A stretch of DNA of 44,781 nt, from assembly GCA_036785375.1 (NCBI GenBank), contig JAWMAR010003537.1:1-44781 (forward strand), given 5' to 3'. The position numbers and the translations under genes are program-made. The notes beneath the pieces were generated by a model. That model saw only the letters and a program-made list of their open reading frames with translations, was not told the DNA's origin and did not search any database. This DNA comes from Leucoraja ocellata. Its lineage: Eukaryota. Below, one piece after another: positions 5,539 through 39,980 of this stretch (positions are counted from its first letter, which is position 1; every line of letters starts with the position of its first letter).

Positions 5539-6453
5539 TAATAATAATAATAATCTTTATTTATATAGCACTTTTCAACAAAACCAGTATTTGAACCAAA
5601 GTGCTTTACAGAGATTGATTAAATTAATTGAACAGATCAAATGTCAATAAATCCATACAAAACAAAAAAGAGAAAAAGAAAAAAAGACATAGAACAGTAC
5701 ACTATAGAAATCAACATGAAACGTCCCCCCACAGCAGAATTCACTGTGAGGGAAGGCACTAAAAATATCCAGTTCTCCCCTTCATAGTCCACCCGAGGTC
5801 GGGGCCTATATCTGGCCTCCTCAGCCAACCCGGTGTTTTCAGGCCCTCTGCCGCGAAGCTGGATCATCGGCGTCGGGTGAACATCCTTCAGCGGCTTGGA
5901 CTGAAGCGGCCGCTTCCTCCCCGAAGACTGCAATGACCAAAGTTCACAGGCCGTGCTGGCCGGACCTCCGACTCTGGCGATCTCGGATCCCAGGCTCAGC
6001 GGTGCTGTAAATCCAGTGCCGCCCACCCACAGCTGGACGTTCTGTAGCCGCAGCTCAACGATGTCGCAGTCGGCGGTCACAGTGCCCCGGAGCTTACCGC
6101 AAGGCGACCCAGTAAGGCATCGCCCGCTCCATGTTGGTGTCCCAGCATCTGCACCGCCGGCGAAGCTGTAGTCCCGGCAGGAAACGGCGCTCCAGCGCTG
6201 CTCCAGTTCGATGGTAGGCCGCACAGAGAGGACGAAGATGCGGTTCGGAGAAAAACCGCATCTCAGACCAGGTAGGACTGGGATTAAAATAGTTTCCCCC
6301 TTCCCCTTCCCTCACCCACCACATAAAAGAAGACCTCCAAGAAACATTTTGTACGGACAGGACTAAAAATAAAAATAAAAAAGTGTGAAAGGACGGACTG
6401 CAGGAGGAGCAGCCATACACAACGGCGCATCACCCCCGCAGTCCGCCATCTTT
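5539..6453 (-). mobile_element. GC-rich non-autonomous retroposon E1 with L2-type tail, nested in the Rex1 3' UTR
   Basis: 5' AAGATGGCGG, body homologous to E2, tail TGTAAAGCACTTTGG...GAAAAGTGCTATATAAATAAAG(ATT)n. No clear TSD. Confidence 0.75.
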
Positions 6454-6793
6454 ATAGTTTACTCGATACATGTGACAATTAACTAAACTAAATCCCATCT
6501 GCATCTTCTCCTGTACAATTTCATCTTTGCTATTATATACTAACAGGAAGCACTCCTCGACAATTTGAGCAATTTTCTGGCATTCCTTTGGCAAGGGAAG
6601 ACTGAAAACATTTAGTCAGAACCTCAGCTGTTCCCACCTGATAAGCAGTCATACAACACAGATTTCTGCGAGCACACACAGTGTGTATCGATCTTAAAAG
6701 CAAATATAAAGAATAAAAACTGTAAAAATAGACAAGATAAAAGTTGTGGGTATGTGTAAAGTGACAATGCATCAGGGTTAATTTGTCCATTGT

Positions 6794-9700
6794 TCATTGT
6801 TTATTTAAGCTGTTTATGGCAATGGGTATGAATGAGTTTTTGTGGATGTTTTTCTTGGATAGGGGGACTTTATATCGGCGGCCTGATGGCAGAAGTTGGA
6901 AAGACTTGTGCAGGGGGTGGGTGGGATCCTGTGTAATGAGATTGGCTTTCCTTTTAACTGCCTGGGTGTGGAGTACTGATCATTGATTTTGCGTTTTGCC
7001 AGTTATTTTGCTTGCCTGATTGATGATCCGGGAAAGCTTTGATTTGTCTTTGACAGAGGTGAGGGTGAACCAGGATGTGATGTTAAAGGTGAGTACAGAT
7101 TCTATAAGTGATTTATAGACAGCTGTTAAAACGTCCTGTCTGACATCAAAGCTCCTGAGTTTCCTCAGCAGGAACAGGCGTTGCTGTGCCTTCTTGTACA
7201 CAGAGTCTGTGTGCTGGGAGAAGGACAGGCGGGTGTCAATCTCTGTGCCCAGGTATCTAAAGGCCTCTACCTGCTCAACTGTCTGCCCATTTAGCCTCAG
7301 AGGTTCAAAGAGAGGTTGGGGGGAAGATGTTCGCCTCCCCCCACAACACAGCTCCTTGGTCTTGGAGATGTTAAGCTCCAGAGAGCTCTCTTTGATCCAC
7401 AGCATCAGGGTGTTGACCTGCTGATAGTAGGCAGCCAGAGAAGTGTGATCCTTGATGTGGGCCACCAGGGCCATATCGTCTGCATACTTAAAAAGGGAAA
7501 TGTCACTGTTATTGTTTGTTATGTTGTTTGTGTAGATGGAAAATAAAATCGGTGATAAGACACAACCCTGGGGGACACCAGTGTTTAAAATCATGTTCTT
7601 GGATTTAAAACCATTTACCACCACATGCTGAGGCCGGTCCTGCAGAAAGTCTTTTATCCACAGGATAAGTGATGGGTTGACTTGTAGATCCAGAAGTCGG
7701 TTACAGAGGGTGACCTTGTTAACTGTGTTAAAAGCTGAAGAAAAGTCCATAAATAAAATCCGTGTGTGGGGGTGTGGGGAGTCCAGCTGTCTGCTAACTG
7801 TGTCCAGAAGAGTCAAACAGGCATCCTCCACCCCACGCCTTGCCTTATAGGCAAACTGGAGTGGGTCAAGCCTGTCCACCACCATAGCAGTGAGGTGATC
7901 ACTTACCACCCTCTCCATACACTTGGAAAGAATGGATGTGAGTGCCACCGGTCTGTAGTCCTTCATCTCCGTGGCGTTAGATTTCTTCGGCACCGGTATG
8001 AGTGTGGACTCCTTCCACATCCATGGGACACAGCTGGAGTCAAGGAGATGCTGGAATAGCTGAGTGATAACATCACCCAGCTGAACTGAGCATTCCCTCA
8101 GCACCTTGCCCCTGAGCCTGTCCGGGCCAGAAGCTTTGTGAGGGTTGATGCGGCCCAGTATAGATGTAACCTTCATTTTATCCACTGTGATTGATGAATT
8201 GCTGGTGAGGGTCCAGTCATTCTGGGGGTGTGTCCTGTCAAACCTGCTGTAATAGATGTTGAGTTGCTCAGCAAAGGTGGCAGGGTCAGAGCATTGGATC
8301 AGGGCCGGTTTCTGGGCTCTGCCCATCATGATGTTAGGTCCCTGCCATGCCTCCCTTGCATTGCCAGTGGTGAATTTTTCCTCCACTTTGTTTTTTGTAG
8401 TGGAGTTTGGCCAGCCTGGTCTTCCTTCTCAGCTCACTATTATACTGTTTTACTCTGTGTTTGTCTCCCTGTAGGAATGCCACTTTTTTGTTGTTAAGAC
8501 ACTGCACCCAAGGCTTGTTATTAGGGTACAGCTTGACCTGTTTTGTTGGTATAACAGCATCCACACAGAATGACAAATAGGAGGAGATTAGAGTCGGTCA
8601 GCAGATTTAGGTCTCCCTCACAACTTTGGAAAAATATTTCCCAGTCAGTGATCTCCATGCAGCCCCTTAATGCATCGACAGAGTCATCGTTCCAGACTTG
8701 AATAGTTTTTGTTTGTATATCTGTTTTTAGTTTTTGTCTGTATTTTGGAAGCAGCAGAATGACATTATGGTCGGAACGACCGAGCGGTGGGCGGGGCTTT
8801 GAGACATAGGCTCCCGGTATGTTACCGAAACACAGATCCAGCGTTCTGTCAAGTCTGGTAGGTGTGGTGACATACTGCTCCAAGTTTGGAAGCTGTGTGG
8901 TGACATCGCATCTGTTAAAATCCCCGAGCAGGAAGACAGGCTGATCGCTGCTCTGATTGACAACTCTGTTGAAACAGTCAGCAATGCGCTCCGTTGCAAA
9001 TGCGTTATCAGGTCCAGGGACATACGCTAGGATAACTGTGATCTGTGTGAATTCACGGGGAAGGTAGTGAGGCCTGAACGACACCGTCATGATTTTGTGG
9101 TGTTTGCTGCATTCAGTCTCTCTGACAGTGAAGTTGACAGCCCACTCTGTGTTGACAGCCCACTCTATGTTGACAGCCCACTCTATGTTGACAGCCCACT
9201 GTGTGTTGCCAGCCCACTCTATGTTGCCAGCCCACTCTATGTTGACAGCCCACTCTATGTTGCCAGCCCACTCTATGTTGACAGCCCACTCTGTGTTGCC
9301 AGCCCACTCTGTGTTGCCAGCCCACTCTGTGTTGCCAGCCCACTCTATGTTGCCAGCCCACTCTGTGTTGCCAGCCCACTCTATGTTGCCAGCCCACTCT
9401 GTGTTGCCAGCCCACTCTATGTTGCCAGCCCACTCTGTGTTGCCAGCCCACTCTGTGTTGCCAGCCCACTCTGTGTTGCCAGCCCACTCTGTGTTGCCAG
9501 CCCACTCTGTGTTGCCAGCCCACTCTGTGTTGCCAGCCCACTCTGTGTTGCCAGCCCACTCTGTGTTGCCAGCCCACTCTGTGTTGCCAGCCCACTCTAT
9601 GTTGACAGCCATGCACAGCCCGCCCCCAATCGATTTCCGCGTCATCCTAGTGTCTCTGTCAAAACGGATGATCTTAAATCCATCAATATCGACATTGATT

Positions 9701-10137
9701 ATTTTTTCTGACAACCATGTCTCCGTGAAGCAAAAGAGACTTGTTTGATGGTAGTCTGAGTCAAGTTTGATGAGTGCGGAAAGTTCAGTTATTTTGTTGC
9801 GTAGTGACCATACATTGGAGAGAGTTATTGCAGGTAGTGGCAGCCTCCTACCTCGTCTCCTCATTCTGTTCCGTATTCCTCCTCTGGACCCCCTTCTCCT
9901 ACGAATGCTCTTGATGTAATGATTCCTCTGTAGCTGAGGAATCCCATTCAGGGAAGAAGGTGTCACTTGTAGAGCCAGGGAAGCAGGCCGCAGATCCAGC
10001 AAAGTGTCCCGTGAGTAGGTGAGCCTCCCTCCATGGCGTGTCATGGGATTTGCCGGTGTAGTACATATCGCAAATACTGGTTCCAGAAAGGCGGTCAGAA
10101 CACACACACTCGCTAAATACTTCACCGTGGTGGTCAT
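6794..10137 (-). pseudogene. Rex1-type EN-RT polyprotein with two frameshifts (about 8576 and about 8390) and one in-frame stop (6980)
   Basis: YSRDTLLDLR...RRRRGSRGG...LPAITLSNVWSLRNK; FTETWL; LGDFN; LGRSDH; DYRPVALTS; DPLQFAY; FMDFSSAFNT; GVPQGCVLSP; KYADD; past the stop, DPTHPLHKSFQLLPSGRRY...NSFIP. Confidence 0.9.
9133..9610. repeat. 18-bp minisatellite GTTG(C/A)CAGCCCACTCT(G/A)T, about 26.5 copies, in frame inside the Rex1 endonuclease
   Basis: Directly visible tandem array encoding A(G/V)N(T/I)EW hexapeptides. Confidence 0.98.
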
Positions 10138-10257
10138 ACTTGCTGTCGTTAAATACCACACTTAATGACTCTCAGAAAAACACTAAACAACTCAGAAAAC
10201 ATGCAAACATACGGGAGCAGCGCGCCGCGGTTCGCTCACAGAATAGCGCCCCGCCCA

Positions 10258-12056: not shown

Positions 12057-12271
12057 TGTCCCAGTGTATTTCAGGTGAAAGAGCCAAAGGAACTTTGTCA
12101 TTAGGTCTCGTCAAGGATTACCCTCCCCTATAATATTGGTTTAAAAAAATAGTTGTGGGGGCTTTGCTCATTGTATTAGCTGTACATCCTCTGCCCTTGT
12201 AGAATATCAACGAACAATGTTTATGAAGATAACGATGTATTTACCCGTGGTGTCATTGCCCGCGGAGTGAC

Positions 12272-15200
12272 CTTGACAATAAGTACTCCTGTTTGAGTAC
12301 TGTTGGGGGGGACAGCCTAGCTGGGGGTAGCAACAGCGGCCGGGCCTCTAGTACAGAGACCGGCCCTGTTGCTCAGAAGGGTAAGGAAAAGAAGAGGAGG
12401 GCAGTAGTAATAGGGGACTCTATAGTTAGGGGGTCAGACAGACGATTCTGTGGACGCAGTCTGGAGACCAGGATGGTAGTTTGCCTCCCTGGTGCCAGGG
12501 TCTGAGATGTATCTGAACGTGTCCAAGAAATCCTGAAATGGGAGGGAGAGGAGCCTGAGGTCGTGGTACATATAGGTACCAATGACATGGGTAGAAAAAG
12601 AGAAGAGGTCCTGAAAGGAGAATTTAGGGAGTTAGGAGGAGAGTTAAGGAGAAGGACTGCAAAGGTAACAATCTCAGGATTACTGCTTGTGCCACGCGAC
12701 AGTGAGAGTAGGAATTGAGCGAAGTGGAGGATAAATGCGTGGCTGAACGACTGGTGCAGAGGGCAGGGATTCAAGTTTCTGGATCATTGGGACCTCTTTT
12801 GTGGAAGGTGTGACATGTACAAAAAGGATGGGTTGCACTTGAACCCGAGGGGAACCAAAATATGGTGGGGAGATTTGCAAAGGCTACTGGGGAGACTTTA
12901 AACATGGAATGGTTGGGGGGAGTGACTCAAATAGAGAAAGCCACTCAGACCCAACATGTAGGGGGGAAAGAAGAAAACAATAATAAACAGAGAATAAGAG
13001 GTGGTGGGTTTCTTAAATGTGTGAGCAGAGAGACAGAGGGGTGTAAAATGAGGGTAGAAGCAATAGGTAGCAAGGTGAAAAGTAAAAGTGGCAGGCAGAC
13101 AAAACCAGGGCAAAAATCAAAAAGGGCAACTTTTCAACATAATTGTACAAGTTGGTAAGAGCGTTGTAAAAACAAGCCTGAAGGCTTTGTGTCTCAATGC
13201 AAGGAGCATTCGTAATAAGTTGGATGAGTTGAATGTGCCAATAGCTATTAATGATTATGATATAGTTGGGATCACGGAGACATGGCTCCAGGGTGACCAA
13301 GGCTAGGAGCTGAACATCCAGGAATATTCAATATTCAGGAGGGATAGACAGAATGGAAAAGGAGGTGGGGTAGCGTTGCTGATTAGAGAGGGGATTAATG
13401 CAATGGAAAGGAAGGGCATTAGTTTGGAGGATGTGGAATCGATATGGGTAGAGCTGCGAAACACTAAGGGGCAGAAAATGCTAGTGGGTGATGTGTACAG
13501 GCCACCTAACAGTAGTAGTGGAGTTGGGGATGGTATCAAACAGGAAATTAGAAATGCGTGCGACAAAGGTAAAACAGTTATAATGGGTGACTTCAATCTA
13601 CATATAGATTGGGTGAATCAAATTGGCCGGGGTGCTGAGGAAGAGGATTTCTTGCAATGTTTGTGGGATAGTTTTCTAAACCAACACGTAGAGGAACCAA
13701 CGAGAGAGCAGGCTATTCTAGACTGGGTATTGAGTAATGAGGAAGGGTTAGTTAGCAGTCTTGTTGTACGTGCCCCCTTGGGCAAGAGTGACCATAATAT
13801 GGTTGAGTTCTTCATTGGGATGGAGGTGACATTGTTAATTCAGAAACAAGGGTTCTGAACTTAAGGAAAGGTAACTTTGAGGATATGAGACGTGAATTGG
13901 CCAAGATTGACTGGAAATTGATTCTTAAAGGGTTGACGGTGGATATGCTATGGAAGGCATTTAAAGTCTGCATGGATGAACTACAACAATTGTTCATCCC
14001 AGTTTGGCAAAAGAATAAATCAGGGAAGGTAGTGCATCCGTGGATAACAAGGGAAATCAGGGATAGTATCAAAACAAAAGATGATGCGTACAAATTAGCC
14101 AGAAAAAGCAGCCTACCAGAGGACTGGGAGAAATTCGGAGACCAGCAGAGGAGGACAAAGGGCTTAATTAGGAAAGGAAAAATAGATTATGAAAGAAAAC
14201 TGGCAGGGAACATAAAAACTGACTGCAAATGTTTTTATAGGTACGTGAAGAGAAAGAGATTAGTTAAAATAAATGTAGGTCCCTTGCAGTCAGCAACAGG
14301 TGAATTGATCATGGGGAACAAGGACATGGCAGACCAATTGAATAACTACTTTGGTTCCGTCTTCACAAGGAAGACATAAATAATCTACCGGGGGCCAAAT
14401 GAGACGGAGGAAATCCAGGTTAGTCGGGAAGTGGTGTTAGGTAAATTGAATGGATTAAAGGCCGATAAATCCACAGGGCCGGATAGGCTGCATCCCAGAG
14501 TACTTAAGGTAGTAGCCCCAGAAATAGTGGATGCATTAGTGATAATTTTTCAAAACTCTTTAGATTCTGGAGTAGTTCCTGAGGATTGGAGGGTAGCTAT
14601 TGTATTGTATTGTATTCAAATTTATTGTCATTGTCTCAATTTGAGACAACGAAATGAATTTCCCTTACAGGCAGTATCATAAAAAAAAATTATAAATAAA
14701 TAATAAATAAATAATAAAACATATTAAAAATAAAATTGAAATTGAATTTAAAAAAAAGCACAAACACAGAAAGTCCACGACACAACATAACATAAATGGC
14801 ACCCAGGTGAGGAAGGCACCATAGTCCAGCCAGCCTCCCCTCCGTGTTCATCCGTGTTCATCCGTGGTCGGGGCCTTCCGAGCACCCGCAGTCGCCGCCC
14901 CGGGTGGCCCGATGTTCAGGCCCTCACGCCGGGCTGGTGGAACGCCGACGCCGAACCCCGACGGTGAGCATCCTCCTCCTCAGCGGCCCGGACCTCCCGA
15001 TCAGCCGCCTCCCGCTGCCGGAGTCTGCAGCTCCTGAGTCCACAGGCCAAGCCGGGCAGAGTCACAGGACCCCGCGCTGTCCATCAGCGCCGCCCACGTT
15101 GGGAGCTCCGCAAACCGCAGCTCCAGGATGTCGGTGCAGCAGGTCCAGCACTCCGGGCTCCAGACGGCGACCCCCGGTAAGGCATCGCCAGCCCGCAATG

Positions 15201-16960
15201 TTCCAGCGCTGTCCCGCCGCTGCTGGAGCTCCGGTCGATCCCGACAGGAAAGGCCGCGCCAATCCAGGTAGGTAGGCCGCTGTTGGGGGAGGGGGGGGCG
15301 AGGACACGACTCAAATAATAGTCGCGTCCTCACCAGGAAGCGGCTGAAGGACGGTATCCCCCGCACCGTGCCCTCTTCCCCCACGTAAAAACACCAAAAA
15401 AACACACAAAAACACACTTTTACATAACTAAATAAACAAAAAAACAAAAAGATACCGGGCTGTAGGTGGAGGCTGCTGGCACCAGCGCCACCGGAAGTAC
15501 AACACATGCTAATGTAACCCACTTTTTAAAAAGGAGGGAGAGAGAAAATGGGGAATTACAGACCAGTTAGTCTAACAACGGTAGTGGGGAAACTGCTAGA
15601 GTCAGTTATTAAAGATGGGATAGCAGCACATTTGGAAAGTGGTGAAATCATTGGACAAAGTCAGCATGGATTTATGAAAGCTAAATCATGTCTGACGAAT
15701 CTTATAGAATTTTTCGAGGATGTAACTAGTAGCGTCGATAGGGGAGAACCAGTGGATGTGGTGTATCTGGACTTCCAGAAGGCTTTCAACAAGGTCCCAC
15801 ATAAGAGATTAGTATGCAAACTTAAAGCACACGGTATTGGGGGTTCAGTATTGATGTGGATAGAGAACTGGCTGGCAAACAGGAAGAAAAAAGCAGAAGT
15901 AAACGGGTCCTTTTCAGAATGGCAGGCAGTGACTAGTGGGGTACCGCAAGGCTCAGTGCTGGGACCCCAGCTATTTACAATATATATTAATGATTTGGAC
16001 GAGGGAATTGAATGCAACATCACCAAGTTTGCGGATGACACGAAGCTGGGGAGGGGGGCAGTGTTAGTTGTGAGAAGGATGCTAGGAGGCTGCAAGGTGA
16101 CTTGGATAGGCTGGGTGAGTGGGCAAATGCATGGCAGATGCAGTACAATGTGGATAAATGTGAGGTTATCCACTTTGATGGCAACAACAAGAAAGTAGAC
16201 TATGATCTAAATGGTGGCCGATTGGGAAAAGGGGAGATGCAACGAGACCTGGGTGTCATGGTACACCAGTCATTGAAAATAGGCATGCAGGTGCAGCAGG
16301 CAGTGAAGAAAGCGAATGGTATGTTAGCATTCATAGCAAAAGGATTTGAGTATAGGAGCAGGGAGGTTCTACTGCAGTTGTACAGGGTCTTGGTGAGACC
16401 ACACCTGGAGTATTATGTACAGTTTTGGTCTCCAAATCTGAGGAAAGACATTCTTGCCATAGAGGGAGTACAGAGAAGGTTCACCAGACTGATTCCTGGG
16501 ATGTCAGGACTTTCATATGAAGAAAGACTGGATAGACTCGGTTTGTACTTGCTAGAATTTAGAAGATTGAAGGGGTTCTTATAGAAACTTACAAAATTCT
16601 TAAGGGGTTGGACAGGCTAGATGCAGGAAGATTGTTCCCGATGTTGGGGAAGTCCAGGACAAAGGATCATAGTTTAAGGGTAAAGGGGAAATCCTTTAGG
16701 ACCGAGATGAGAAAAACGTTTTTCACACCGACAGGGGTGAATTTCTGGTATTCTCCGCCACAGAATGTAGTTGAGGCCAGTTCATTGGCTATATTTAAGA
16801 GGGAGTTAGATGTGGCCCTTGTGACTAAAGGGATCAGAGGGTATGGAGAGAAGTCAGGTACAGGATACTGAGTTGGATGATCAGCCATGATCATATTGAA
16901 TGGCGGTGCAGGCTCGAAGGGTCGAATGGCCTACTCCTGCACCTATTTTCTATGTTTCTA
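12272..16960 (+). mobile_element. Near-complete, 5'-truncated CR1 LINE (ORF1 SGNH esterase plus ORF2 EN-RT), frameshifted
   Basis: VVIGDSIVRG, HIGTND, DGLHLN (GDSL/SGNH); ITETWL, MGDFN, GKSDH; [23 protein letters not shown]; tail TTTCTATG; TSD/microhomology TGAC at 12268-12271 and 16961-16964. Confidence 0.95.
14600..15507 (-). mobile_element. GC-rich non-autonomous retroposon E2 with Rex1-type tail, inserted in CR1 ORF2
   Basis: TSD GCTA (14596-14599 and 15508-15511); 5' ACTTCCGGTGGCG; tail CATTTCGTTGTCTCAAATTGAGACAATGACAATAAA...(AATAC)n. Confidence 0.85.
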
Positions 16961-17037
16961 TGACTCCAGCAGATATACCGACAATGCTTAGCTGTGATTA
17001 AATGGTTCCATTCTATAGGTGCAAAGAAATTGACTTT

Positions 17038-18048: not shown

Positions 18049-18738
18049 GAAATTGACTTTTGACTGAACTGTCATCGATGTTTGTTCGATAGACATTTTG
18101 TAACTTTCATGGTGCCAGAAACATGGCGACCCTTTGTGCACTGCCTAGGTGAGGTCTGCTGTACGATTTAACTAGATTGTATGCAAACATAAAGAATTTC
18201 ATTGCACCTAGCTGCATGCGGCAATAAAGTATCATTGATTCGTTGAATCATTAATTTTGTTGCATTGCGGTGCATTCATTTGCTAAAACAAATTGGAATA
18301 TACAATAGGCGGGGGAACACATGGATCGCAGCATTTGTCGATTTTTAAAACGTCTGTGTGTTCTGGCTATAGAACATGGACCCCACTGACCCCCCCAGAT
18401 ATGTTTTACATTTTCACACACGCCTACATTATATCACGCAGTGACCTTCACACAGAAGCGCTCACTTCATGTACACGGCTGCAGTGTGAAAAGGGGAACA
18501 TCCATTCGGTATTTTACTCATTTTTATCTGTGTGGTGTGTGACTAGCAATCATACCCACGATATGAACTACATTATATCTCTGTGTCAGATAATCTCTAA
18601 ACAGATTCCATACAGAATCTAAGAGACATTGATCCCACTGTAAACGTGAAAGCTAATCCCAATCAAACACAGTAGCCGGGATTTACATGATCAGAATGGA
18701 TACTCCTGACAGTTTAACTGAAATGATGCAGCATGCAA

Positions 18739-18781
18739 CCAATGAGATTGGTAGCTGGAATTTGCGAGATCTGTTGCTAGG
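18739..18781 (-). promoter_or_regulatory. MHC-type X1-box (RFX) plus Y-box (NF-Y) module
   Basis: Minus strand CCTAGCAACAGATC-N21-CTCATTGG, compared with the HLA-DRA module as I recall it, CCTAGCAACAGATG-N20-CTGATTGG. Confidence 0.5.
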
Positions 18782-19277
18782 TAGTTTTTTATTTTGTTCG
18801 TTGTTATTCACCATCGGAGTTTTCAATGTTTGAGCAGCAGACTGAAAGTGCCTCATTAATTTAGCAGCACGACCGACACAGGTGTTTCCTTTCAGTTACA
18901 TGGTGAGCTCTTGCCCATCATTCACAATGAAATGTTTTGTCTGTAGATGAGGGGGGATATTCTGATTCGGCAGAATCGAAAATGCATTCATTCCGCATGC
19001 TATTAGTAATTTTATCATTTATTCAATGCGCATTCTTATGATAATAAGGACTATCTCTGCTGAGCCACATAAACACAAACAATTAGAGGGAAGTTTGAGG
19101 CGTTAATAAAGTTAATTTAGATTTCCCCACTTTGATGTAATGGACATGTAGTCTTGTAGAAGAAATGGGGAAGATGATCGATACGTTACCGAATTTAAAT
19201 GAATTTAATATTACATAGGCAGACAAAAGGTTACAGATGAATCGCATGAGTGGGCCGTTCGATCTCAGATTACAGGT

Positions 19278-21003
19278 TAGAAACATAGAAACATAGAAAC
19301 TTAGAAATTAAGGTGCAGGAGGCCATTCGGCCCTTCGAGCCAGTACCACCATTCAATATGATCATTGCAGATCATCCAAAATCTGTACCAGCATTTTCTC
19401 CATATCCCTAGAATTAGTTAACGCTAAGAAGCTAAATCTAAACTTCTTTGAAAACATCCAGTGACTTGACCTCCACTGCCTCCTCTGGCAGATAATCCCA
19501 CAGATTCACACCTCTCATGAACAAAGAAATGGCAGATGAGTTGAACAGATACTTTGGATCTGCCTTCACTAAGGAGGACACAAACAATCTTCCGGATATA
19601 GTAGTGGCCATAGGTACTGGGGTGATGGAGGAACTGAAGGAAATCCATATTAGGCAGGAAATGGTGTTGGATAGACTGATGGGACTGAAGGCTGATAAAT
19701 CCTCAGTGCCTGATGGTCTGCATCCCAGGGTACTTAAGGAAGCGGCTCTAGAAATCGTGGATAGATTGGTGATAAGAGTTCCTTCTGCAGTTGTACAGAG
19801 CCCGAGTGAGACCACACCTGGAGTATTGTGTGCAGTTTTGTTCCCCTAATTTGAGGAAGGACATTCTTGCTATTGAGGGAGTGCAGCGTAGGTTTAGAAA
19901 ATAGAAAATAGGTGCAGGGGTAGGCCATTTGGCGCTTCGAGCCTGCACCGCCATTCGATATGATCATGGCTACAAGGTTTACAAGGTTAATTCTCAGGAT
20001 GGCGGGACTGTCAGATGCTGAGAGAATGGAGCTGCTGGGCTTGTATACTCTGGAGTTTAGAAGGATGAGAAGGTGTCTCATTGAAACATAAGATTGTTAA
20101 GGGTTTGGACACGCTAGAGGCAGGAAACATGTTCCCGATGTTGGGGGAGTCCAGAACCAGAGGCCACAGTTTAAGAATAAGGAGTAAGCCATTTAGAACT
20201 GTGACGAGGAAACACTTTTTCGCACAGAGAGTGGTGAGTCTGTGGAATTCTCTGCCTCAGAGGGCGGTGGAGGCCGGTTCTCTGGATGCTTTCAAGAGAG
20301 AGCTAGATAGGGCTCTTAAAGATAGTGGAGTCAGGGGATATGGAGAGAAGGCAAGAACGGGGTACTGATTGGGGATGATCAGCTGTGATCATATTGAATG
20401 GTGGTGCTGGCTTGAAGGGCTGAATGGCCTCCTCCTGCACCTATTGTCTATTGTCTCTCCAGGTGAAAACGTTTTTCTTCATCTCAGTCCTAAATGGCCT
20501 ATCCCTTAATCTTAAACAGTGACCCTGGTTTTGGACTCCCCCAACATCGGGACCATCATGTTTGCATCTACCCTGTCCAGTGCTCTAATAATGTTATATG
20601 TTTCTATAAGATCCCCTCTCATCCTCCTAAATTCCAGCAAATACAAGTCCAGTCAACGCATTCTTTCATCATACGTCAGTCCCGTCATCCCGGGATTTAA
20701 CCTGGTGAACCTATGCTGCACTCACTCAATAGCAATAAGGTCCTTCCTCAAATTAGGGGATCAAAGTGGCACACAATACTCCAGGTGCGGTCTCACCAGG
20801 GCTCTGTACAACTGCTGTAGAACATCTAAACTCAAATCCTCTCGCTATGAAGGCCAACATGCCATTAGCTTTCTTCACTGTATACTGTACCTGCATGCTT
20901 ACTTTCAGTGTGATGTACACAGCCAGGTCTCTTGCACATCCTCTTCTCATAACCTGACACTATTCAGGTAATAATCTGCCTTCTTGTTTTGTATAACCTC
21001 ACA
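19278..21003. mobile_element. Cluster of CR1 fragments: about 19278-19515 minus, 19516-20456 plus (with a short minus tail nested at about 19897-19973, TSD AGGTTTA), and 20457-21003 minus continuing at 26022 after the DIRS
   Basis: ORF2 motifs (DGLHPRVLKE, LWNSLPQ), ATTGTCT and TTTCTA tails. Confidence 0.85.
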
Positions 21004-24000
21004 TTTTACTTCGGAATCACGTGAGTGACTACGTGAAGACCCCGCCAGCACGCATGCGCGGCATATCGTCTATCGCATTGCACAACGACTGGCTGGCAGG
21101 CGCGATTCTCCTGCCAGCAGTCAGACCTGAAGGTAAGTTTTTGAAACATTTTCCAGGTTTTATCTTCCTGCAGGAACCTCTGCTTAAAGGTCCTGCTAAA
21201 GCCCGGAGCGTTGCCCCCGCAGCAGAAGGTTTAAAACAGGACCTGCGGGAAAATTCTTTACTCTCAGGTTGTTTAGTTCTATTTCTGTGAGGATGTGTTA
21301 CAGGAAAGGTACCATGGACTAAGTCCAAATGGAGACTGACTGTGGAGGACCATGGGAGTGCGGGTAGTCAGCAGCGGTTGGCTACACCTGGACCGCTAAT
21401 CGATCATCATTCTCCGACCTGGCACCTGCACAGCACGTATGGACATCACAGACTGGCGGGAAGTCCAAGCAGAAGTCGGACAGACCGAAGGGAGTCGGGC
21501 TGTGAAGACTGTGATCACATATCCCGCATGGAGCGGTTGATGGAGCAGATGCTCCAACGTGACATGCTCCAGTATATGGAGTTTAGTCACCATGGGGTCC
21601 TAGGACGCCCATGGCCGCACCTCATAGAGGGCTGCATAATGCATCTCCCTCGACAGAGGGGAGCATTAGGAGACACTTCTGGGCTGACTCTGAAGACAGG
21701 GGTTTGGCTGAAGATACCACAAGTGTGCTGCGGGTGCAGGAACAACAACCAGCAGCAAGGCTGTGAATGACATCTCCGGTGGCAGCACCCCTATGCACTC
21801 ACCAGCAAACCATGGAAACTGGTGAAAGCTTGAAGGCCGTACAACCAGGACAAAGGTCTTTTCAGGCCATAGCCCAGAACGGCCTTCCTGGAAGATGCGC
21901 CAACCCCGTACTCGAAGCTTCTCTTCCTCCCAGGAGCAGAATTTGCAAAATGATGCACACGAGGTTAAGACTGACTGAAGTCACTGACGGAAGTCAGGAC
22001 AAGATACAAGATACAATTTATTTGTCATTTGGACCCCTTAAGGTCCAAACGAAATGACGTTTCTGCAGCCATACATTACAAACAAATAGACCCAAGACAC
22101 AACATAATTTACATAAACATCCATCACATGGCTGTGATGGAAGGCCAAAAAAACTTATCTCTCCACTGCACTCCCCCCCCCCCCCCCCGATGTCAGAGTC
22201 AAAGTCAAAGCCCCCGGCTGGCGATGGCGATTGTCCCGCGCCCATTAAAGCCACGCCGGGTGGTGCAAGGTCGCACACCGGGTTCTTTATGTTAGAGCCC
22301 CCGGCGTGAGCTCGCAGAGTCCCGCGGCCATTCCAAGCCGCGCGGGGCGGTGCTGTAAGGCCCCGCTCCAGGAACTCTTCGACCCCGCAACTCGGGCGGG
22401 AGAAGTCGCCGTTGCGGGAGCCCTGAAAAGCGGTCTCCCTCCAGGGACCCGCGGGCTCCCGGTGCCGCCGTCCGCCAGACCCGCAGTTGCAGCCTCCGAA
22501 TCTCCGGAGGTCGGGCCGCAGCAGCAGCAGCGCTCCACCACCGCTCCACCCGCTCTGGACTCGGCCAGCTCCGCAACGGTGAGGTGAGTCGTCGGCACCA
22601 GAGCCCCAGGTCTTCCTGTTGGAGGCCGCTCCATGTTACAGCCCCAACGACAACGGAGACCCGACAAAGAAAAGGTCAGGTCTCCCGTGCAGGGAGAGAT
22701 TTAAAAGTTACCCCCTCCCATCCCACCCCAACCCCCCCACACACATACCTCAACAAAAAATAACAAAAACTACATAAAAACATAGACAAAAAATAATAAA
22801 AACGCAGATGGGCTGCAGAGGCCGCTGCTGACGAGAGTCGCGCCGCCTACCGTGTCAGGAGGGTCCCCTCCGGCATGGGTTCGGCCTCGGATGTTTTACC
22901 CATCCTGATTGGCCAGGGAGGGCCATATCAGCGCAGGTCTCCTCGAGAGCCTGTGGCCACACCCTTTTCAGGGTTGCCTACAAAACTCCCTTCTGCGAAG
23001 GTGAGTACGAGGGGTCAGTTGGCAACTGACTCTGAACTCGGAAGCACTCTGAACTCTGAACTCGGGAGCATGTCCGAGGAACAGGTGCCGGCTGGGAGAT
23101 ACCATGCACCTGAAAAGACATGGGTCCACATGCACCAGCAGCCCTACGCTCCAATCAAGGATGGAAATCGAACCCGCATCGGGGGCCTTTTGGGTTTACC
23201 ATAAAACCCCCGGTAGCCATGACGGCAGGTGGGTCTGGGTTTTTCCTAAAACGTAGTGTTGTGGACCATTTACATGAAGGTTGGATGTGATTAGTTTATA
23301 CTGCACAGTACAAGCGAGACAGTCTCGGAATATGGCTGGAGTTGCCTCTTTAGGCAGGTTCGCTATAATGACAGATGAGGCCTGTTCATTATCAACAAGC
23401 TCAACTCGCATGTGCAGTATAGACATTGAAACTTCGTGACTATTAATTCCCATGGGGTCAGCTTCATTCACAGGGCACCGGAAATACCTGAAATTTAACT
23501 GGATGGGGCAATGATATAGCAAAATAGGGAAACCAGCTCCCAGGTTATTTATTAAATTAATGCTTCGGCAGCTCAGAGCTAAACAATATTGTTAAGAACT
23601 ATCTGGATGAAATTTAAACGCTGTATTTTGCTAAGTTAGCTGTATCAGCCACAAAACCATTTGAGAAATTGGGTTCTCATCTGTCCAGATAAATTTAAGT
23701 TGATGCCAACTGAAATTATTGATTATTGGGATTACCTTTAACTCTATTAATCATCTGGGACTCCGCCCTGAGGTAAGGGATTGGAATTAATTGAAGCCCG
23801 TAACAAACCTGATCAAACAGCCTTCTGTTCATCAAGTATAATTGGCTTACAGCTGTGCTATTTGGGCCTTTGCACAATCAAAACAATACAGCATGCAAAA
23901 GAAGTAAGCACTCAAGTACCATGTGGTCATTGTTACCAGCTCTATGCTACTCCACTAAATCAGCAAATCTTCAGTTAAATTACAAACTGATGCTATTGTT

Positions 24001-27015: not shown

Positions 27016-27117
27016 TGCACATTAGGACATGAGCAGGAGCATCACATTAAATACACGCTCCGTGCGATTTATAGTGTATGGAGGGATCTCGTCTCCGCAT
27101 CCAACCAACACTGCATT

Positions 27118-29041
27118 TGTCCCAGTGCATTTCATGGGAGAGAGTCAAGTGAACTTTGTCATTGGGTCTCGTCAAGGATTACCCTCCCCTATAATATTTG
27201 TCCGAAAAACAGTTGTGAGGGCTTTGCTCACTATATTAGCAGTACATCCCTCTACTCTTGTAGAATTGGAACGAGCAATGTTTATGGAGATAACCATGTA
27301 TTTACCAGTGGTGTCATTGCCCGTGGAGTGACTCCAGCAGATATACCGATAATGCTTAGCTGTGATTAAATGGTTAAATCAAGGACTGATTCTATCCGTG
27401 CAAAGACATTGACTTTTGACTGACCTGTCATTGATGTCAGTTCAATAGACATTTTGTAACTTTCTTGGGCCCAGAAACATGGCGACTATTTGTACATTAC
27501 CTCGGTGAGGTTGCGAATTTACTAGATTATATGATAAAATAAAGAATTTCACTGCACCTAGCTGCATGTGGCAATAAAGTATCATTGAATCGTTGAATCA
27601 TTGGTTTTGTTGTATTACGGTGCATTAATTTACTAAAACAATGTGAAATATACAATTAATTGACAATTAAATCATAAGGGTTGATAGGTTTAACATAAGC
27701 GTAGGGCAGTGCATGTGCCCAAGGAGTATTTCTACCACACTCAATAGTCAGAAAGAGATGACTGGTGCAGGAAAATATGCAGGGAAACACATGGATCACA
27801 GCATTTGTCGATTTGTAAAACGTCTGTGTGCTCCGGCTAAAGAACATGGAATCCAGACCCCACTGATCATCCCAGATATGTTTTACATTTTCACACACGC
27901 CTACATTATATCATCCAGTGACCTTCACGCAGAAGCGCTCACTTCATGTACGCGGCTTCAGTGTGCAAATGGGAACAATGTGGACACCTCTGGCCTTCGC
28001 TAAACTAGAATATAATGAGCATCCATTCGGTATTTTACGATATCCTACTCATCTGTGTGGTGTGTGACTAGCAATCATACCCACTATATGAACTACCTTA
28101 TAACTCTGTGTCAGATAATCTCTAAACAGATTCCATACAGAATCTAAGAGACATTGATCCCACTGTAAACGTGAAAGTTAATCCCAATCAAACACAGTAG
28201 CCGGGATTTACACGATCAGAATTGATACTCCTGACAGTTTAATCGAAATGATGCAGCATGCAACCAATACGATTGGTAGCTGGAAGTTTGCGAGATATAG
28301 ATTGCGAGGTAGTTTTTTATTTTGTTAGTTGTAATTCATCATCACAGTTTTCAGTGTTTGAGCAGCAGACTGCAAGTGCCTGATTCATTTAGCAGCTCGG
28401 CCGACACAGATGTTTCCTTTCAGTTACATGGTGACCTCTTGCCCATCATTCATAATTTCGCCACAGAAAATGTAGAAGAGGGGGGATATTCTGATTCAGC
28501 ATTCCTTCCTTATGTGAGTGGTGAATCTCTGGAACTCGCTGCCACAGAGGGTAGTTGAGGCCAGTTCATTGGCTATATTTAAGAGGGAGTTAGATGTGGC
28601 CCTTGTGGCTAAGGGGATCAGGGGGTATGGAGAGAAGGCAGGTACGGGATACTGAGTTGGATGATCAGCCATGATCATATTGAATGGCGGTGCAGGCTCG
28701 AAGGGCCGAATGGCCTACTCCTGCACCTAATTTCTATGTTTCTATGTTTATGCTATTAGTCATTCTATCATTTATTCAATGCGTACTCTTATGATAACAA
28801 AGACCGTTTGTGCAGAGCCACATAAACACAAACAATTAGTGTGAGGCGTTAATAAAGTTTAATTTAGTTTTCCCCACATGGATTTAATGGACATGTAGTC
28901 TTGGAGAAGCCACGGGGAACCTGATCGATATGGCAGCGATTTAAAATGGATTTGATATAACATAGGAGTACAAAAGATAACAGATAGATCACACGAGTGG
29001 GCCGTTTGATCTCAGATTATACGTTAGAAACATAGAAACAT
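27118..29041. repeat. Copy B of the duplicated segment, with its own CR1 3'-end insertion at about 28516-28748
   Basis: Colinear with copy A; retains about 27657-27780 and about 27978-28018, which copy A lacks. Confidence 0.95.
27306..27359 (-). other. Candidate 54-nt exon of an unidentified gene
   Basis: aatcacag|CTAAGC...CCACTG|gtaaat with both splice dinucleotides kept in copy A. Reads LSIIGISAGVTPRAMTPL (phase 0) or xKHYRYICWSHSTGNDTT (phase 1). Weak pyrimidine tract; no homologue recognised. Confidence 0.2.
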
Positions 29042-29742
29042 CGGATGAAAGCTGCATACTAAATCTCTTTGCACATATGTGCAATGACAATAAAATATGT
29101 TATTATAAACTTGATCATGAATGATTGTCCAAAATGTTACGTTTTCCCTGCCACATCTGTGTCTCACAATGTTATTAGCCTCACAACTCGCCGTTCAGGC
29201 TGAATTAAAAAAAATGAATGGCATTTCATATTTATTCTGATTCCATTTGATTTCACCTTTCCCCCACATATGATGTGGCTGGAGTCCAACACTCCACCCT
29301 TAGCAAAGAGCAGGAGGAGAACGGAAGCACCTGTGGATTATTTAGAGAAATGAATGTACTGGTTCCAGCCCGAAGCACAGAGCTGCTGAGTGCAAACTAA
29401 CAACTCCAAGATCTGCCCAGCAACACGTGTCTCATACCCACAACTGGCGACGCAATTGGTTAACCAATGGGTCTTTAGGATTCATCATTTAATTGTGCTC
29501 TCTGACAGTTTGGACCCAAAGCCACTCTGGACTGGAAGTGAGAAGTGTAAATGATTAATACTCATTACATCCATTCACAAATCTGCTAGATGCAGTTCTT
29601 GGAGTTGGAGAGGTCTAATAATATTTTGAAGAATTGGACACATGACGATCAGCAATGATTGGGTTGAAGGCTGAACCAGTTTTAAGGGCCTAATGGCTTA
29701 CCTTGCTGCAATCGTTATTGTTCATGTCTAGTCATGATCCTA

Positions 29743-30073
29743 TGCCCCTGTCCCACTTAGGAAACCTGCACAGAAACCTCTGGAGACTTTGCGCCCACCT
29801 AAGGTTTCCGTGCGGTTCCCAGAGGTTTTTGTTAGTCTCCCTGCCTGCTTCCACTACCAGCAAGAAGATGGGTTTCGGCCCGAAACATTGCCTATTTCCT
29901 TTGTTCCATAAATGCTGCTGCACCCGCTGAGTTTCTCCAGCACTTTTGTCTACCTTCCACTACCTGCAACCTCCGGCAACCACCTGCAACCTCCGGGAAC
30001 CGCACGGAAACCTTGGGTGGGGCGCAAAGACTCCAGAGGTTTCCGTTCAGGTTTGCTAAGTGGGACAGGGGCA
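29743..30073. mobile_element. MITE with about 85-bp TIRs, PIF/Harbinger-like
   Basis: TGCCCCTGTCCCACTTAGGAAACCTG... matches ...CAGGTTTGCTAAGTGGGACAGGGGCA; flanks CTA and TTA (TWA-type 3-bp TSD with one mismatch). Confidence 0.85.
29864..29953 (+). mobile_element. 90-bp Penelope-like terminal fragment with partial hammerhead core, inserted in the MITE
   Basis: GAAGATGGGTTTCGGCCCGAAAC...GCTGAGTTTCTCCAGC; flanking direct repeat CTTCCACTACC(A/T)GCAA at 29848-29863 and 29954-29969. Confidence 0.75.
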
Positions 30074-30154
30074 TTACTATAATATTTTTCAATGTACAAC
30101 ATTATTGTTCATGAAATTGCATTACAAATATTTCCCTGGAGCATGTCCCATACG

Positions 30155-34432: not shown

Positions 34433-34559
34433 AATCGAGAAACATTGCAGAAAGATGCTATCCCATCATTCAGGGTCGCTTCGCTCTTCCATAAGATCAC
34501 AGCGGATGCCGTCTAAGAATCCTCATCACCTTTCCTCTCATTCTCCGTACTCCTTGATG

Positions 34560-35399
34560 TGGGCGGCGGGACCGGTGTCGCAGCGGCCTCTGCAGTCTGT
34601 CCGTGTTTTTTTTGTTTTTTTTTTGTCCTGTTGAGGGTTTAGTTGTAGCGGTTTAGCGTTTTTTTTTTTTTTTTTTTTAAATGTGTATGTGTGGGGGGTG
34701 GGGGATGGGTGGGGAAACTTTTAATCTCTTCCCTGCATGGAGACCCGACCTTTTCCCTGTCGGGTCTCCGTTGCCATTGGGGCCTAGCGCCGTGGAGCGG
34801 CCTCCACCGGAACGACCTGGAGGCTCAAGTCACGGCGCCTGTGGAGCCGCGGAGCTGCTGTGGAGCTGTTGTGGAGCTGCTGTGGAGCCGCGGAGCCTGT
34901 GGAGCTGTGGAGCTGTTGTGGAGCTGCTGTGGAGCTGCTGCGGACTTACCTCCGTGGAGCTGGCCGGCTTCGGGGCGTGGAGAGCGGCGGTGGCGCGTTG
35001 CTGCGGCCCGGCTCCGGTGGATGGTGACACCGGGAGCTCGCGGATCCCCGGTGGGAGGCTGCTTTGCGGGGCACCGGCAGTTGCAGCGGCGACTTCTCCC
35101 GCCCGAATTGCGGGGTTGAGAGTGACCTGGAGCCCTACAACGCCCGGCGCGGCCTTAATTTGCCGCGGACTAGCGCCCGCCGGGGGCTTTGACCTCGACT
35201 TCGGGAGGGAAATGGAATGCAGGGGAGAGACAAGAACTTTGCCTTCCATCACAGTGAGGAGGAGAGCCACTGTGATGGATGGTTATGTGAATAATGTTGG
35301 TGTGTGTTTTGGTTCTTTTATTGTATGGCTGCAGAAACTACATTTCGTTTGAACCTCGTGTGAGGTTCAAATGACAAATAAAGGTATTGTATTGTATTG
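34560..35399 (+). mobile_element. GC-rich non-autonomous retroposon E4 with Rex1-type tail
   Basis: Close relative of E3; internal (GTGGAGCTGCT)n-like array at about 34840-34940; tail CATTTCGTTTGAACCTCGTGTGAGGTTCAAATGACAAATAAAG(GTATT)n. Confidence 0.85.
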
Positions 35400-37980: not shown

Positions 37981-38819
37981 AAAGTCAAGTGCTTTGAGAT
38001 TTTCTGCATCTATAAAGATAGATAATTTACAGTGACATTAAAATAGATGCAAGGTGCAGTATTTCCATCATTGCAGGTTTCCATCTTTCTTTTAACCGAG
38101 AACCAAAATGATTATATCTGTTGATAAAGTTTATTCACAATTTTCAAATACTTGTTGTATTTTTTGTATATTTGTTGCATAAAAAGTGGCGCAGCCCAGG
38201 TCCGGTAGTGCAACTGAGAAAATATGTGGCCTTAACCCAACTTGCCAACACGGATAACTTTATTCCAGACTGCTACAGTCTCTGTAGGATTAATACAGTC
38301 TGAAATAAATATAGACGCGCCCTCGTGCTTTACAGCCGACGGCATTTTGGGGTGTAATTATTGTAGACATAGTGCAGCATATGACGTGGATAGGTGCTTG
38401 AAACACATTGTGTAATGTACCAGAAGGATTTAAACAGGCATATGGATATGCAGAGAGTGGCGGGATGTGAATCATTTGCACATAGGTGAGATTAGTTTAT
38501 CTTGGCATTATATTTAGTAGAGAGATTGTGAGTCGAAAGACATGAAACTGTGCTGTACATTTCTATGGTCTATATAGTGTCTTTGCAAGACTATTGGGGA
38601 GTGTGCTCAGTGTAAGATACAGAAGGTTGAGACAGATGTTGGGCTTGGCAGATGAATGCGTGTTTCAGTGTAAGGTATGGAGACATAAGGCCTAATGTGA
38701 CATGGAATTGTGCTTCATGGTATTATAGTTAATTTATTTTTTTAGTTTAGAGATTCCAAATGTTATATAAATAAATACAGCCCATAAATAATGACGTTGT
38801 CTATTATAGTAGATATAGG

Positions 38820-39151
38820 GGGTGGCACAGTGGCATATGGGATGACAGGCTGGCATAGTGGTAGAGTTGCTGCCTTACAGCACCAGAGATCCAGATTCAA
38901 TCCTGACTGGAGGCTGTCTGTACGGTGTATGTCCGTTCTCCATGTGACCGCGTGCATTTTCTCCGGCTGTTCCGGTTTCCTCCCACACTCCAAAGACGTG
39001 TAGCTTTGTTGGTTAATTGGCTTTGGAAAGGAATGTAGATTGTCCCTAGTGCGTTGGATAATGCTGGTGTATGGGGGCCACTGGTCGGCGTGGACTCGGA
39101 GGTCCGAAGGGCTTGTTTCCGCGCTGTGTCTCCAAACTAAACAAAACTAAA
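38820..39151 (+). mobile_element. tRNA-derived V-SINE/HE1-like SINE
   Basis: A-box-like GGCATAGTGG, B-box-like GATTCAATCC, core TCCGGTTTCCTCCCACACTCCAAAGACGTG, LINE-derived tail CCGAAGGGCTTGTTTCCGCGCTG plus AAACTAAAC. Confidence 0.85.
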
Positions 39152-39299
39152 TATGAGAAAAGAAAACACGATACATTGTGAAAAGAGCGGATCATTATTG
39201 CCTTTTCATGTACAGTGAGTTTAATGAATATGGGGGTAGGTCTAATATGGTTTATGCGGGGCAAAGACAAGGTTAGATAAAACAACAAGTTGGACAATA

Positions 39300-39980
39300 T
39301 ATCGTCGGTTTTATTATTTTTGTGTGTTTTGAAAGTTTGTGCTAATGTTCTCTGGTTTGTTTTATGTGGGGGGTGAGGGATGGGGTCAGGGGAAAGTTTT
39401 TTTCAATCTCTTACCTTGCCGGAGATGCGATTGTTTTCCGGATCATATCTCCGGTCGCTCTGCGGCCTAACATCATGGAGCTGGCGGCCATGCACGGGAC
39501 TAACTTTGTGCCCCACCACGGGGCCGTGGACTTACCATCGCAGCCGATCCCTTGCCTTGGATCGACGCTCCAACCGCAGCCTGCGGACTTTAACATCAAA
39601 GAGCTCACAGTCTCGGGAGAGACCGAGTCGGTAAGCTCCAACGACACAGAAGGTTTAACCAGCCCCAACCTGGGGGTCAGATTGCCTGGCATGGGGAGCT
39701 GAGATCCCCTGATACAGGAGATTGATCACCCTGATGCGGAGGGACCACCGCCGGCTACAGGAGTCTAGATCAACGGAAGCTCGAGGCCCAGAACCATGGG
39801 AGATCAAAGAAAGGAAGAGGTTGAACAATTTTTGCCTTCCAACACAGTGAGGAATGTGGAGGAGTCACTGTGGTGGATGTTCATGTTCTAATGTATTTTG
39901 TGTGTTCTATTGCTTTTTATTGGTATGACTGTACGGCAAAACAAATTCCTCGTGTGTTGCAAAACATACTTGGCTAATAA
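39300..39980 (+). mobile_element. GC-rich non-autonomous retroposon E5 (5' end eroded)
   Basis: T-tract, G-tract, hairpin 39419-39454, 3' box GCCTTCCAACACAGTGA...TCACTGTGGTGGA, tail AAATTCCTCGTGTGTTGCAAAACATACTTGGCTAATAAAG. Confidence 0.75.

What the first reader, a model, noticed from the sequence alone, without database searches (positions are those of the whole stretch)
6235..39454. Same-position hairpin with different sequence but preserved pairing in all five long E elements
Seen on the sense strand just after the G-tract: E1 GAGATGCGG...CCGCATCTT (6235-6264), E2 GAGGACGCGAC...GTCGTGTCCTC (15300-15331), E3 GGAGACCTGAC...GTCGGGTCTCC (22655-22685), E4 GGAGACCCGAC...GTCGGGTCTCC (34739-34769), E5 CCGGAGATGCGAT...ATCATATCTCCGG (39419-39454). 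Stems are 9-13 bp with T-rich loops. Several mismatches are G-U pairs on the sense strand. Inference: compensatory change points to selection on an RNA structure in the transcript.
Basis: partly seen in the sequence, partly recalled or inferred. Interest (0 to 1): 0.75.

Follow-up and report, generated by a model that had tools for sequence, protein, structure and literature searches.

The report
Conserved hairpin in a hitch-hiking retroposon
Five repeats in this window belong to a large, protein-less family of jumping elements that all carry a hairpin at the same place, and its family-level changes favour pairing on the RNA strand, so it likely folds in the element's RNA and likely helps that RNA get copied by enzymes borrowed from two kinds of LINE.

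Summary
The five hairpins are real and sit at the stated coordinates (E1-E3 on the minus strand). A structure-blind alignment puts them in one register. The E elements are 0.7-0.95 kb non-coding, non-autonomous retroposons without target-site duplications. They cover about 2% of 1 Mb sampled, form many subfamilies, and end in Rex1-like or L2-type 3' tails.

In 109 copies the stem has 14-15 bp and a 9-10 nt U-rich loop. On internal (subfamily) branches, G-U-making transitions in the stem outnumber A-C-making ones 18-20 to 5, against a balanced background (p 0.001-0.003). On terminal branches there is no bias. This supports selection on sense-RNA pairing in the master elements, followed by neutral decay after insertion. 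Classical covariation is weak: my R-scape-like test passed 1 of 15 pairs.

I found no support for a ribozyme, a Pol III SINE or a U1 origin. Related species' reads suggest that sense RNA is polyadenylated at the element's own AATAAA. Most likely the hairpin is a docking site for a host factor in a Pol II-type transcript; this function is inferred, not shown.

The parts
5538..6452 (-). E1: full-length E retroposon with L2-type tail and (ATT)n end
   Evidence: tail class
6229..6277 (-). E1 core: YUACCU motif plus hairpin
   Evidence: 55.9 bits
5722..5757 (-). E1 second conserved hairpin near the 3' end
   Evidence: sequence
14598..15505 (-). E2: full-length E retroposon inserted in a CR1-like LINE; Rex1-like tail and (AATAC)n end
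15295..15342 (-). E2 core hairpin (15 bp)
   Evidence: 43.3 bits
22000..22853 (-). E3: full-length E retroposon ending in AATAAA plus microsatellite
   Evidence: RNA reads
22650..22698 (-). E3 core hairpin
   Evidence: 37.6 bits
22118..22145 (-). E3 second conserved hairpin near the 3' end
   Evidence: sequence
34556..35399 (+). E4: full-length E retroposon; head resembles a Rex1 5' end, tail Rex1-like
34727..34774 (+). E4 core hairpin
   Evidence: 49.7 bits
35241..35281 (+). E4 second conserved hairpin near the 3' end
   Evidence: sequence
39309..40000 (+). E5: 5'-truncated E retroposon
39409..39457 (+). E5 core hairpin
   Evidence: 62.4 bits
39834..39879 (+). E5 second conserved hairpin near the 3' end
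   Evidence: sequence
42590..42811 (-). E6: 3'-only fragment of the E2 type, no hairpin
   Evidence: 84% to E2
6700..10255 (-). Rex1-type LINE copy (RT plus PF09004), a member of the likely helper class; not itself shown to be the partner

Best explanation
The hairpin is a conserved part of a non-coding, non-autonomous retroposon superfamily and likely folds in the element's sense RNA, where it would serve as a docking site for a host protein that helps the RNA be copied by borrowed Rex1 or L2 reverse transcriptase.

Shown: the anatomy (GC-rich head, U-rich run, G-tract, YUACCU, 14-15 bp stem with a 9-10 nt U-rich loop about 200-230 nt from the 5' end, GC-rich body, second hairpin, LINE-type tail with AATAAA and a microsatellite); high copy number; no TSDs; strand-biased, pair-keeping changes on subfamily branches and neutral decay in individual copies; the same core with two tail classes.

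Inferred: transcription by Pol II from the head; selection acting through transposition of master copies rather than through host function; a host rather than LINE ligand, because the hairpin persists when the tail changes between Rex1-like and L2-type. The ligand and the step it serves (export, stability or ribosome-side capture of the RT) are untested. I put selection on sense-RNA pairing at about 0.85 and the host-factor docking role at about 0.45.
For: Stem, internal branches: C>T plus A>G 18-20 versus G>A plus T>C 5. Background (379 non-hairpin columns, same branches): 319-345 versus 384-393. Fisher p 0.0008-0.003 over 5 reconstructions. Terminal branches: 34-35 versus 47, p 0.36-0.50. 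Pair kept/broken: 34/18 internal versus 59/97 terminal, p 0.0007. In 44 lineage representatives 85.2% of cells pair, against 35-46% in slid registers, with double changes at 10 of 14 pairs; RNAalifold predicts the same stem. It is the only strong fold among 30 windows (mean z -3.9 versus -0.94 to +0.18), and sense is more stable than antisense in 69 of 89 copies. Rex1-like tails in 6 of 11 tested; an L2-type tail in E1 and relatives. T5+ runs in 108 of 111 heads and no B-box excess argue against Pol III. 509 reads carry a poly(A)-like run just past the AATAAA on the sense strand in run X22. A lineage carried inside a DNA-transposon-like repeat has lost the 3' arm.
Against: The R-scape-like test found only 1 of 15 stem pairs significant (E 0.004) and none in the all-pairs test (best stem pair E 0.9). 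In one search the number of pairs with double changes (85 of 500 shuffles as high) and of extra pair types (32 of 500) was not significant. The null (86% versus 61% paired, 0 of 400) scatters changes over columns and so overstates the effect. 29 of 138 copies were dropped for indels, among them all young E2 copies and several with deleted hairpins. One subfamily has a 2-nt internal loop in the stem. No binding partner was tested. The RNA reads come from related species and the strandedness of run X21 is unconfirmed. Stem-specific RNA editing could mimic part of the G-U excess.
Confidence: 0.45

Rival explanations
1. The hairpin is selected in the sense RNA but acts without a specific ligand, together with the G-tract, as a block to ribosome scanning or exonuclease decay that keeps the capped RNA untranslated and intact.
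For: Same strand-bias evidence. A G-quadruplex pattern lies just upstream in 76 of 111 copies, and no long ORF was found (median longest ATG ORF 82 aa).
Against: Loop length and the unpaired flanking motifs (YUACCU, GCGGCCUAMC) are conserved, which a simple barrier would not need. The stem is only about -18 kcal/mol on average.
Confidence: 0.25
2. The inverted repeat works in DNA, as part of an internal Pol II promoter or through quasi-palindrome template switching that perfects arms without selection on RNA.
For: It lies in the 5' quarter beside G-rich tracts. Weak classical covariation leaves room for few, correlated events.
Against: A DNA mechanism predicts no strand difference between G-T and A-C, yet the internal-branch ratio is 18-20 to 5 against a balanced background. 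G-U is fixed in several subfamilies.
Confidence: 0.1
3. The core is a relic of the U1 snRNA 5' end and first stem-loop, whose splice-site-complementary motif is kept to pair with 5' splice sites.
For: The genome's own U1 aligns over its first 24 nt to the E profile (3.3 bits; 6 of 2000 shuffles), and the covariance model lands in register on U1 nt 3-52. Antisense donor-like hexamers occur at 1.79 per 500 nt versus 0.27 shuffled, mostly on either side of the hairpin.
Against: The comparison was post hoc. The covariance score is 8 bits (E about 5, background level). Median pairwise z is 0.8, with 1 of 90 copies beyond all shuffles. There is no Rfam U1 hit, and the loop is unrelated to U1's.
Confidence: 0.1
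4. The region is a self-cleaving ribozyme that defines the element's RNA end, as in R2, RTE or Ingi elements.
For: Such ribozymes are known at the 5' ends of LINEs that give rise to bipartite elements (PMC5786205, section 23). One subfamily contains a TCCTCGC word that recalls the HDV L3 loop (recalled).
Against: No Rfam ribozyme hit. My HDV-like descriptor hit 15 of 111 copies versus 19 shuffled, and the hammerhead core 5 versus 7 antisense. Full-length copies keep about 200 nt upstream of the hairpin, and 5' ends do not pile up at it.
Confidence: 0.04
5. The hairpin is an inherited, functionless palindrome from the founder element.
For: Few deep lineages and weak formal covariation.
Against: Pair-keeping versus pair-breaking differs between internal and terminal branches, and the strand bias is specific to the stem.
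Confidence: 0.06

Closest known systems
Bipartite ORF-less non-autonomous LINEs (RIME, NARTc, Bov-A, RTESINE, Vingi derivatives; PMC5786205)
   Same: No protein; LINE-like 5' end and LINE 3' tail; presumed Pol II transcription.
   Different: That paper lists only RTE, Ingi, Vingi and R2 as sources; here the tails are Rex1-like and L2-type. The roughly 600-nt body with the hairpin was not found in the 20 long Rex1 loci examined, so it is not a simple internal deletion as far as sampled.
SINE superfamilies with a conserved central domain and exchangeable tails (CORE, V, Deu, Ceph; PMC5786205, PMC7245038)
   Same: A shared central segment kept across subfamilies whose 3' tails come from different LINEs.
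   Different: No tRNA, 5S or 7SL head was detected, Pol III terminators precede the core, and the elements are longer (0.7-0.95 kb).
SVA/LAVA composite retroposons (PMC7353768)
   Same: Non-autonomous composite, mobilised in trans, GC-rich body, with 5' domains that affect mobilisation.
   Different: No Alu-like part, no clean VNTR (about 0.9 degenerate units per 500 nt), LINE-specific tails rather than poly(A), and no TSD.
SINEU (U1/U2-headed SINEs of crocodilians; PMC4494074)
   Same: A short U1-like word next to a stem-loop.
   Different: The resemblance is internal, about 24 nt long and at background score; SINEU heads are 5'-terminal and mobilised by Tx1.
3'-end stem-loops of stringent LINEs and SINEs (PMC3747384)
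   Same: Compensatory changes in a retroposon RNA hairpin.
   Different: This hairpin is about 600 nt from the 3' end and independent of tail class; E has its own terminal tail hairpin.

Membership tests
Non-autonomous non-LTR retroposon | Dispersed high-copy repeat with fixed 3' end and variable 5' truncation | tested here: met
   5,679 exact motif matches versus 2 control; 39 hits reaching the 3' end, with spread 5' starts
Non-autonomous non-LTR retroposon | No coding capacity for RT or endonuclease | tested here: met
   tblastn hits only beyond the element ends in 106 copies; median longest ATG ORF 82 aa
Non-autonomous non-LTR retroposon | 3' tail shared with a LINE | tested here: met
   6 of 11 tails match Rex1 3' ends at 1 or fewer of 100 shuffles, one of them (E1) mainly through the microsatellite; 5 do not. 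The E1-type tail also follows an LHWLP-coding stretch in L138 and L272 (L2 label recalled).
Non-autonomous non-LTR retroposon | Mobilisation in trans by the LINE protein | not testable with these tools
   needs a cell assay
Bipartite non-autonomous LINE (internal deletion) | 5' end derived from the partner LINE's 5' end | tested here: inconclusive
   E4 0 of 100, L260 2 of 100, E3 7 of 100, L250 9 of 100 shuffles; 6 of 10 heads no match to 16 Rex1 5' ends
Bipartite non-autonomous LINE (internal deletion) | Whole element made of the LINE's 5' and 3' parts | tested here: not met
   Body and hairpin absent from 20 long Rex1 loci except as inserted E copies; only a sample of Rex1 families and no full L2 was examined
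Classical SINE (Pol III) | tRNA/5S/7SL head with internal Pol III promoter | tested here: not met
   no tRNA, no Rfam hit, B-box 10 versus 13 shuffled, T5+ runs in 108 of 111 heads
SINEU | U1- or U2-derived 5' head | tested here: not met
   U1 scores 8 bits, E about 5; the likeness is internal and limited to about 24 nt; U2 covered only by the Rfam scans
HDV-like ribozyme | Nested double pseudoknot with catalytic C, at the element's 5' end | tested here: not met
   own descriptor 15 of 111 versus 19 shuffled; no Rfam hit; about 200 nt retained upstream
Hammerhead ribozyme / Penelope pLTR | CUGANGA...GAAA core | tested here: not met
   5 of 111 sense versus 7 antisense
Conserved structural RNA | Covariation beyond phylogeny | tested here: inconclusive
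   1 of 15 pairs significant; strand and branch tests positive

The most novel reading that the evidence does not exclude
E is an undescribed superfamily of Pol II-type, ORF-less retroposons whose conserved RNA core (a splice-site-complementary YUUACCU word plus a 15-bp hairpin) recruits a host RNP or pairs with LINE mRNA, letting one body parasitise two LINE clades by swapping tails. It would be a Pol II counterpart of the Alu domain.
Probability: 0.2. Interest if true: 0.75.

Novelty: new variant of a known kind. Interest (0 to 1): 0.5.

Why it matters
How non-autonomous RNAs capture LINE enzymes is understood mainly for Alu with L1 and for 3'-tail stem-loops (recalled; tail recognition also in PMC3747384). 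Here an internal hairpin is kept across many subfamilies and across a switch between Rex1-like and L2-type tails. This gives a natural mutational series for asking what else such an RNA needs. A 2018 survey lists no Rex1 or L2 source for ORF-less bipartite LINEs (PMC5786205, section 23). At about 2% of sampled DNA, with donor-like sites on the antisense strand and a used poly(A) signal on the sense strand, the family may also shape host transcripts. It is a transposon-internal feature; copies decay neutrally, so no host function is implied.

Tried and rejected
Rfam scans of the window and of 20 E loci gave nothing relevant. ARAGORN found no tRNA. A U1 origin was suggested by eye, gave a weak profile match and a background covariance score, and was not adopted. 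HDV-like and hammerhead descriptors were at background. TSD search: mean longest shared word 5.7 versus 5.0-5.2 in controls, and 2 of 72 copies at 9 nt or more. No autonomous LINE carrying the E body was found in 20 long Rex1 loci or downstream of 106 E cores. Metagenome pattern scan: 0 of 92 loci are E. No RNA holder was listed on record for E3; this is no evidence either way. A strand control for the RNA runs was not obtained, so the 12:1 strand ratio in X21 cannot be assigned to sense RNA with certainty. Our-findings look-ups returned nothing. Literature searches found no description of this family. Repbase and Dfam could not be searched, so it may already have a library name. No supplements were read.
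Full report
Observation. The five hairpins are at the stated places, with E1-E3 on the minus strand. They fold at -16.7 to -20.4 kcal/mol as quoted, with z of -4.1 to -9.2 and 0 of 200 dinucleotide shuffles as low for each. Sequence-only alignments put them in one register behind a G-tract, a U-run and a YUACCU word. The E5 mismatch is C-A.

What the elements are. The window lies in a 3.44-Gb genome rich in CR1-like and Rex1-type LINEs; the copy at 6.7-10.3 kb carries RVT_1 and PF09004. I take the host to be a cartilaginous fish, probably a ray or skate. This is inferred from recall of such repeats and from a paper reporting that rays have among the highest Rex1 coverage (PMC13343379, passages); it was not tested. 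Each E type has many relatives (first-look candidates 1,712-4,287; the 40 best at 88-100% identity). They start at fixed heads and end in AATAAA plus a microsatellite, without TSDs (2 of 72 copies share 9 nt or more). One G-tract motif has 5,679 exact matches against 2 in the control. In 100 unselected 10-kb stretches there were 20 cores and 50 pieces covering 19,987 bases, 2.0%. Of 39 pieces reaching the 3' end, 10 start in the head and the rest are 5'-truncated at spread positions. No RT lies inside. Six of 11 tails matched Rex1 3' ends at 1 or fewer of 100 shuffles (E1 mostly through its microsatellite) and five did not. Of 10 heads, E4 matched a Rex1 5' end at 0 of 100, three more weakly (2, 7 and 9 of 100), and six not at all. 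E1 and some relatives end instead in a different tail (5,953 exact matches). In L138 and L272 that tail follows a stretch coding an LHWLP motif, which I read by eye and recall as the L2 ORF2 C-terminus. So one body travels with two tail classes. The body was not found in 20 long Rex1 loci except as inserted E copies. T5+ runs in 108 of 111 heads, no B-box excess and no tRNA argue against Pol III.

Sample. 245 core hits gave 234 anchored copies, and 195 after removing 39 flagged as duplicates by shared flanks; some of those 39 may be false duplicates. Keeping 6 per BLAST-selected family gave 138. Dropping 29 with indels in the hairpin columns gave 109. The dropped set includes all young E2 copies (an aligner artefact at their poly-C linker), several copies with deleted or interrupted hairpins, and one three-copy lineage lacking the 3' arm. 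The tree was built from 379 non-hairpin columns.

Is pairing selected? Across clades the stem shows U-A/C-G, A-U/G-C/U-A and G-C/C-G exchanges. In 44 representatives chosen by non-hairpin branch length (plus five E2-type or divergent copies added back), 85.2% of cells pair against 35-46% in slid registers, and 10 of 14 pairs show double changes. The count of such pairs did not exceed the shuffles (85 of 500). My R-scape-like test with a tree null passed only the pair next to the loop-closing pair (E 0.004 among 15) and none among all 3,240 pairs. Classical covariation is therefore weak, as expected with few deep lineages. The branch-wise tests are stronger. Changes keep or break a pair 34/18 on internal and 59/97 on terminal branches (p 0.0007). 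Transitions that make G-U on the sense strand outnumber those that make A-C by 18-20 to 5 on internal branches, while the same classes are balanced in non-hairpin columns (p 0.0008-0.003). Terminal branches show no such bias (p 0.36-0.50). A general strand mutation bias or a DNA palindrome mechanism does not predict this; stem-specific RNA editing could contribute. The 86% versus 61% pairing result (0 of 400) uses a null that scatters changes, and I give it little weight. The hairpin is the only strong fold among 30 windows spaced 20 nt apart in 45 copies, a grid centred on it. The lineage that lost the 3' arm sits inside a repeat with inverted ends and TA flanks that looks like a DNA transposon; this is one natural case consistent with release from RNA-level selection.

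RNA. No listed holder was on record as RNA. Raw reads from related species laid on E3 at 85% likeness gave 15,654 of 7.3 million records in X21, about 12:1 on one strand at the hairpin. That strand is the sense strand only if the library follows the common convention; this was not verified, and internal priming at the A-rich antisense tract is a real alternative (seen in X22). In X22, 509 reads carry a T-run just beyond the AATAAA. Genomic copies end in microsatellites, so this suggests polyadenylation of sense RNA at the element's own signal. Many X21 reads cross the 5' boundary, so part of the signal is read-through from host genes.

Mechanism. Most likely the head drives Pol II transcription, the tail hairpin is read by Rex1 or L2 RT, and the internal hairpin with its conserved loop size and flanking words binds a host factor that raises the chance of being copied. 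Selection then acts only on master copies. The first and last of these steps are inferred, and the ligand is unknown. A passive barrier role is the main rival. A ribozyme is unlikely: no Rfam hit, descriptors at background, and about 200 nt retained upstream. A U1 origin rests on about 24 nt chosen post hoc (6 of 2000 shuffles) and a background covariance score.

Comparison. It works like bipartite non-autonomous LINEs, central-domain SINE superfamilies and SVA, but fails the membership tests for Pol III SINE, SINEU and strict internal-deletion derivative. Papers seen: PMC5786205 (passages and section 23), PMC4494074 (first of five parts), and passages of PMC7245038, PMC2746220, PMC13343379, PMC3747384 and PMC7353768; others only as search listings. 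No supplements were read; repeat libraries in them could name this family. Seven searches found no description, but Repbase and Dfam were not available.

Verdict. The feature is real and probably selected as RNA structure. It is a new variant of non-autonomous retroposon as far as I could check, with function inferred. Interest 0.5.

Noticed in passing
window 5722-5757(-), 22118-22145(-), 35241-35281(+), 39834-39879(+): A second conserved hairpin about 140 nt before the AATAAA. In the 60 of 111 copies matched by the motif, mean z is -3.7, with an A-U/C-G exchange at its third pair.
   Followed up: partly
just 3' of the core hairpin in E copies, e.g. window 39458-39490: A further small stem around GCGGCC...GGCC is predicted in most clades, in differing registers; not tested for covariation.
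   Followed up: partly
E bodies, first 200 nt after the G-tract: Antisense 5'-splice-site-like hexamers are enriched (1.79 per 500 nt versus 0.27 shuffled), so antisense intronic copies could be exonised.
   Followed up: partly
L122:1808-1886, L318:7973-8050, L375:304-377: An internally deleted E fragment is carried inside a repeat with inverted ends and TA flanks, probably a MITE-like DNA transposon.
   Followed up: partly
window 9133-9610: An 18-nt in-frame tandem array (26.6 copies) has expanded inside the endonuclease part of the Rex1 copy, keeping a 546-aa open frame.
   Followed up: no
G000 C1777, C1661, C404, C1196, C5379, C1748: This window's region is segmentally duplicated several times at 95-98% identity, including the E and Rex1 insertions.
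   Followed up: partly
L225, L237, L240: A Rex1 family with a long GC-rich 5' region containing TACCTGG and GGAGCTG words like those of the E body; the whole-element profile gave no hit there.
   Followed up: partly
window 21000-25990: A roughly 5-kb segment bounded by related inverted ends (near 21005-21060 and 25700-25990) with degenerate coding sequence, not part of E; it may be a DIRS-like retroelement (recalled, untested).
   Followed up: no
window 29730-30075: A short element with long terminal inverted repeats, probably a MITE.
   Followed up: no
window 12060-12300 with 27110-27330, and 18050-19300 with 27420-29040: Local duplications of otherwise non-repetitive-looking DNA within the window.
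   Followed up: no
L396:252-299: An E copy lies about 1.2 kb upstream of a U1 gene; probably a chance insertion.
   Followed up: no
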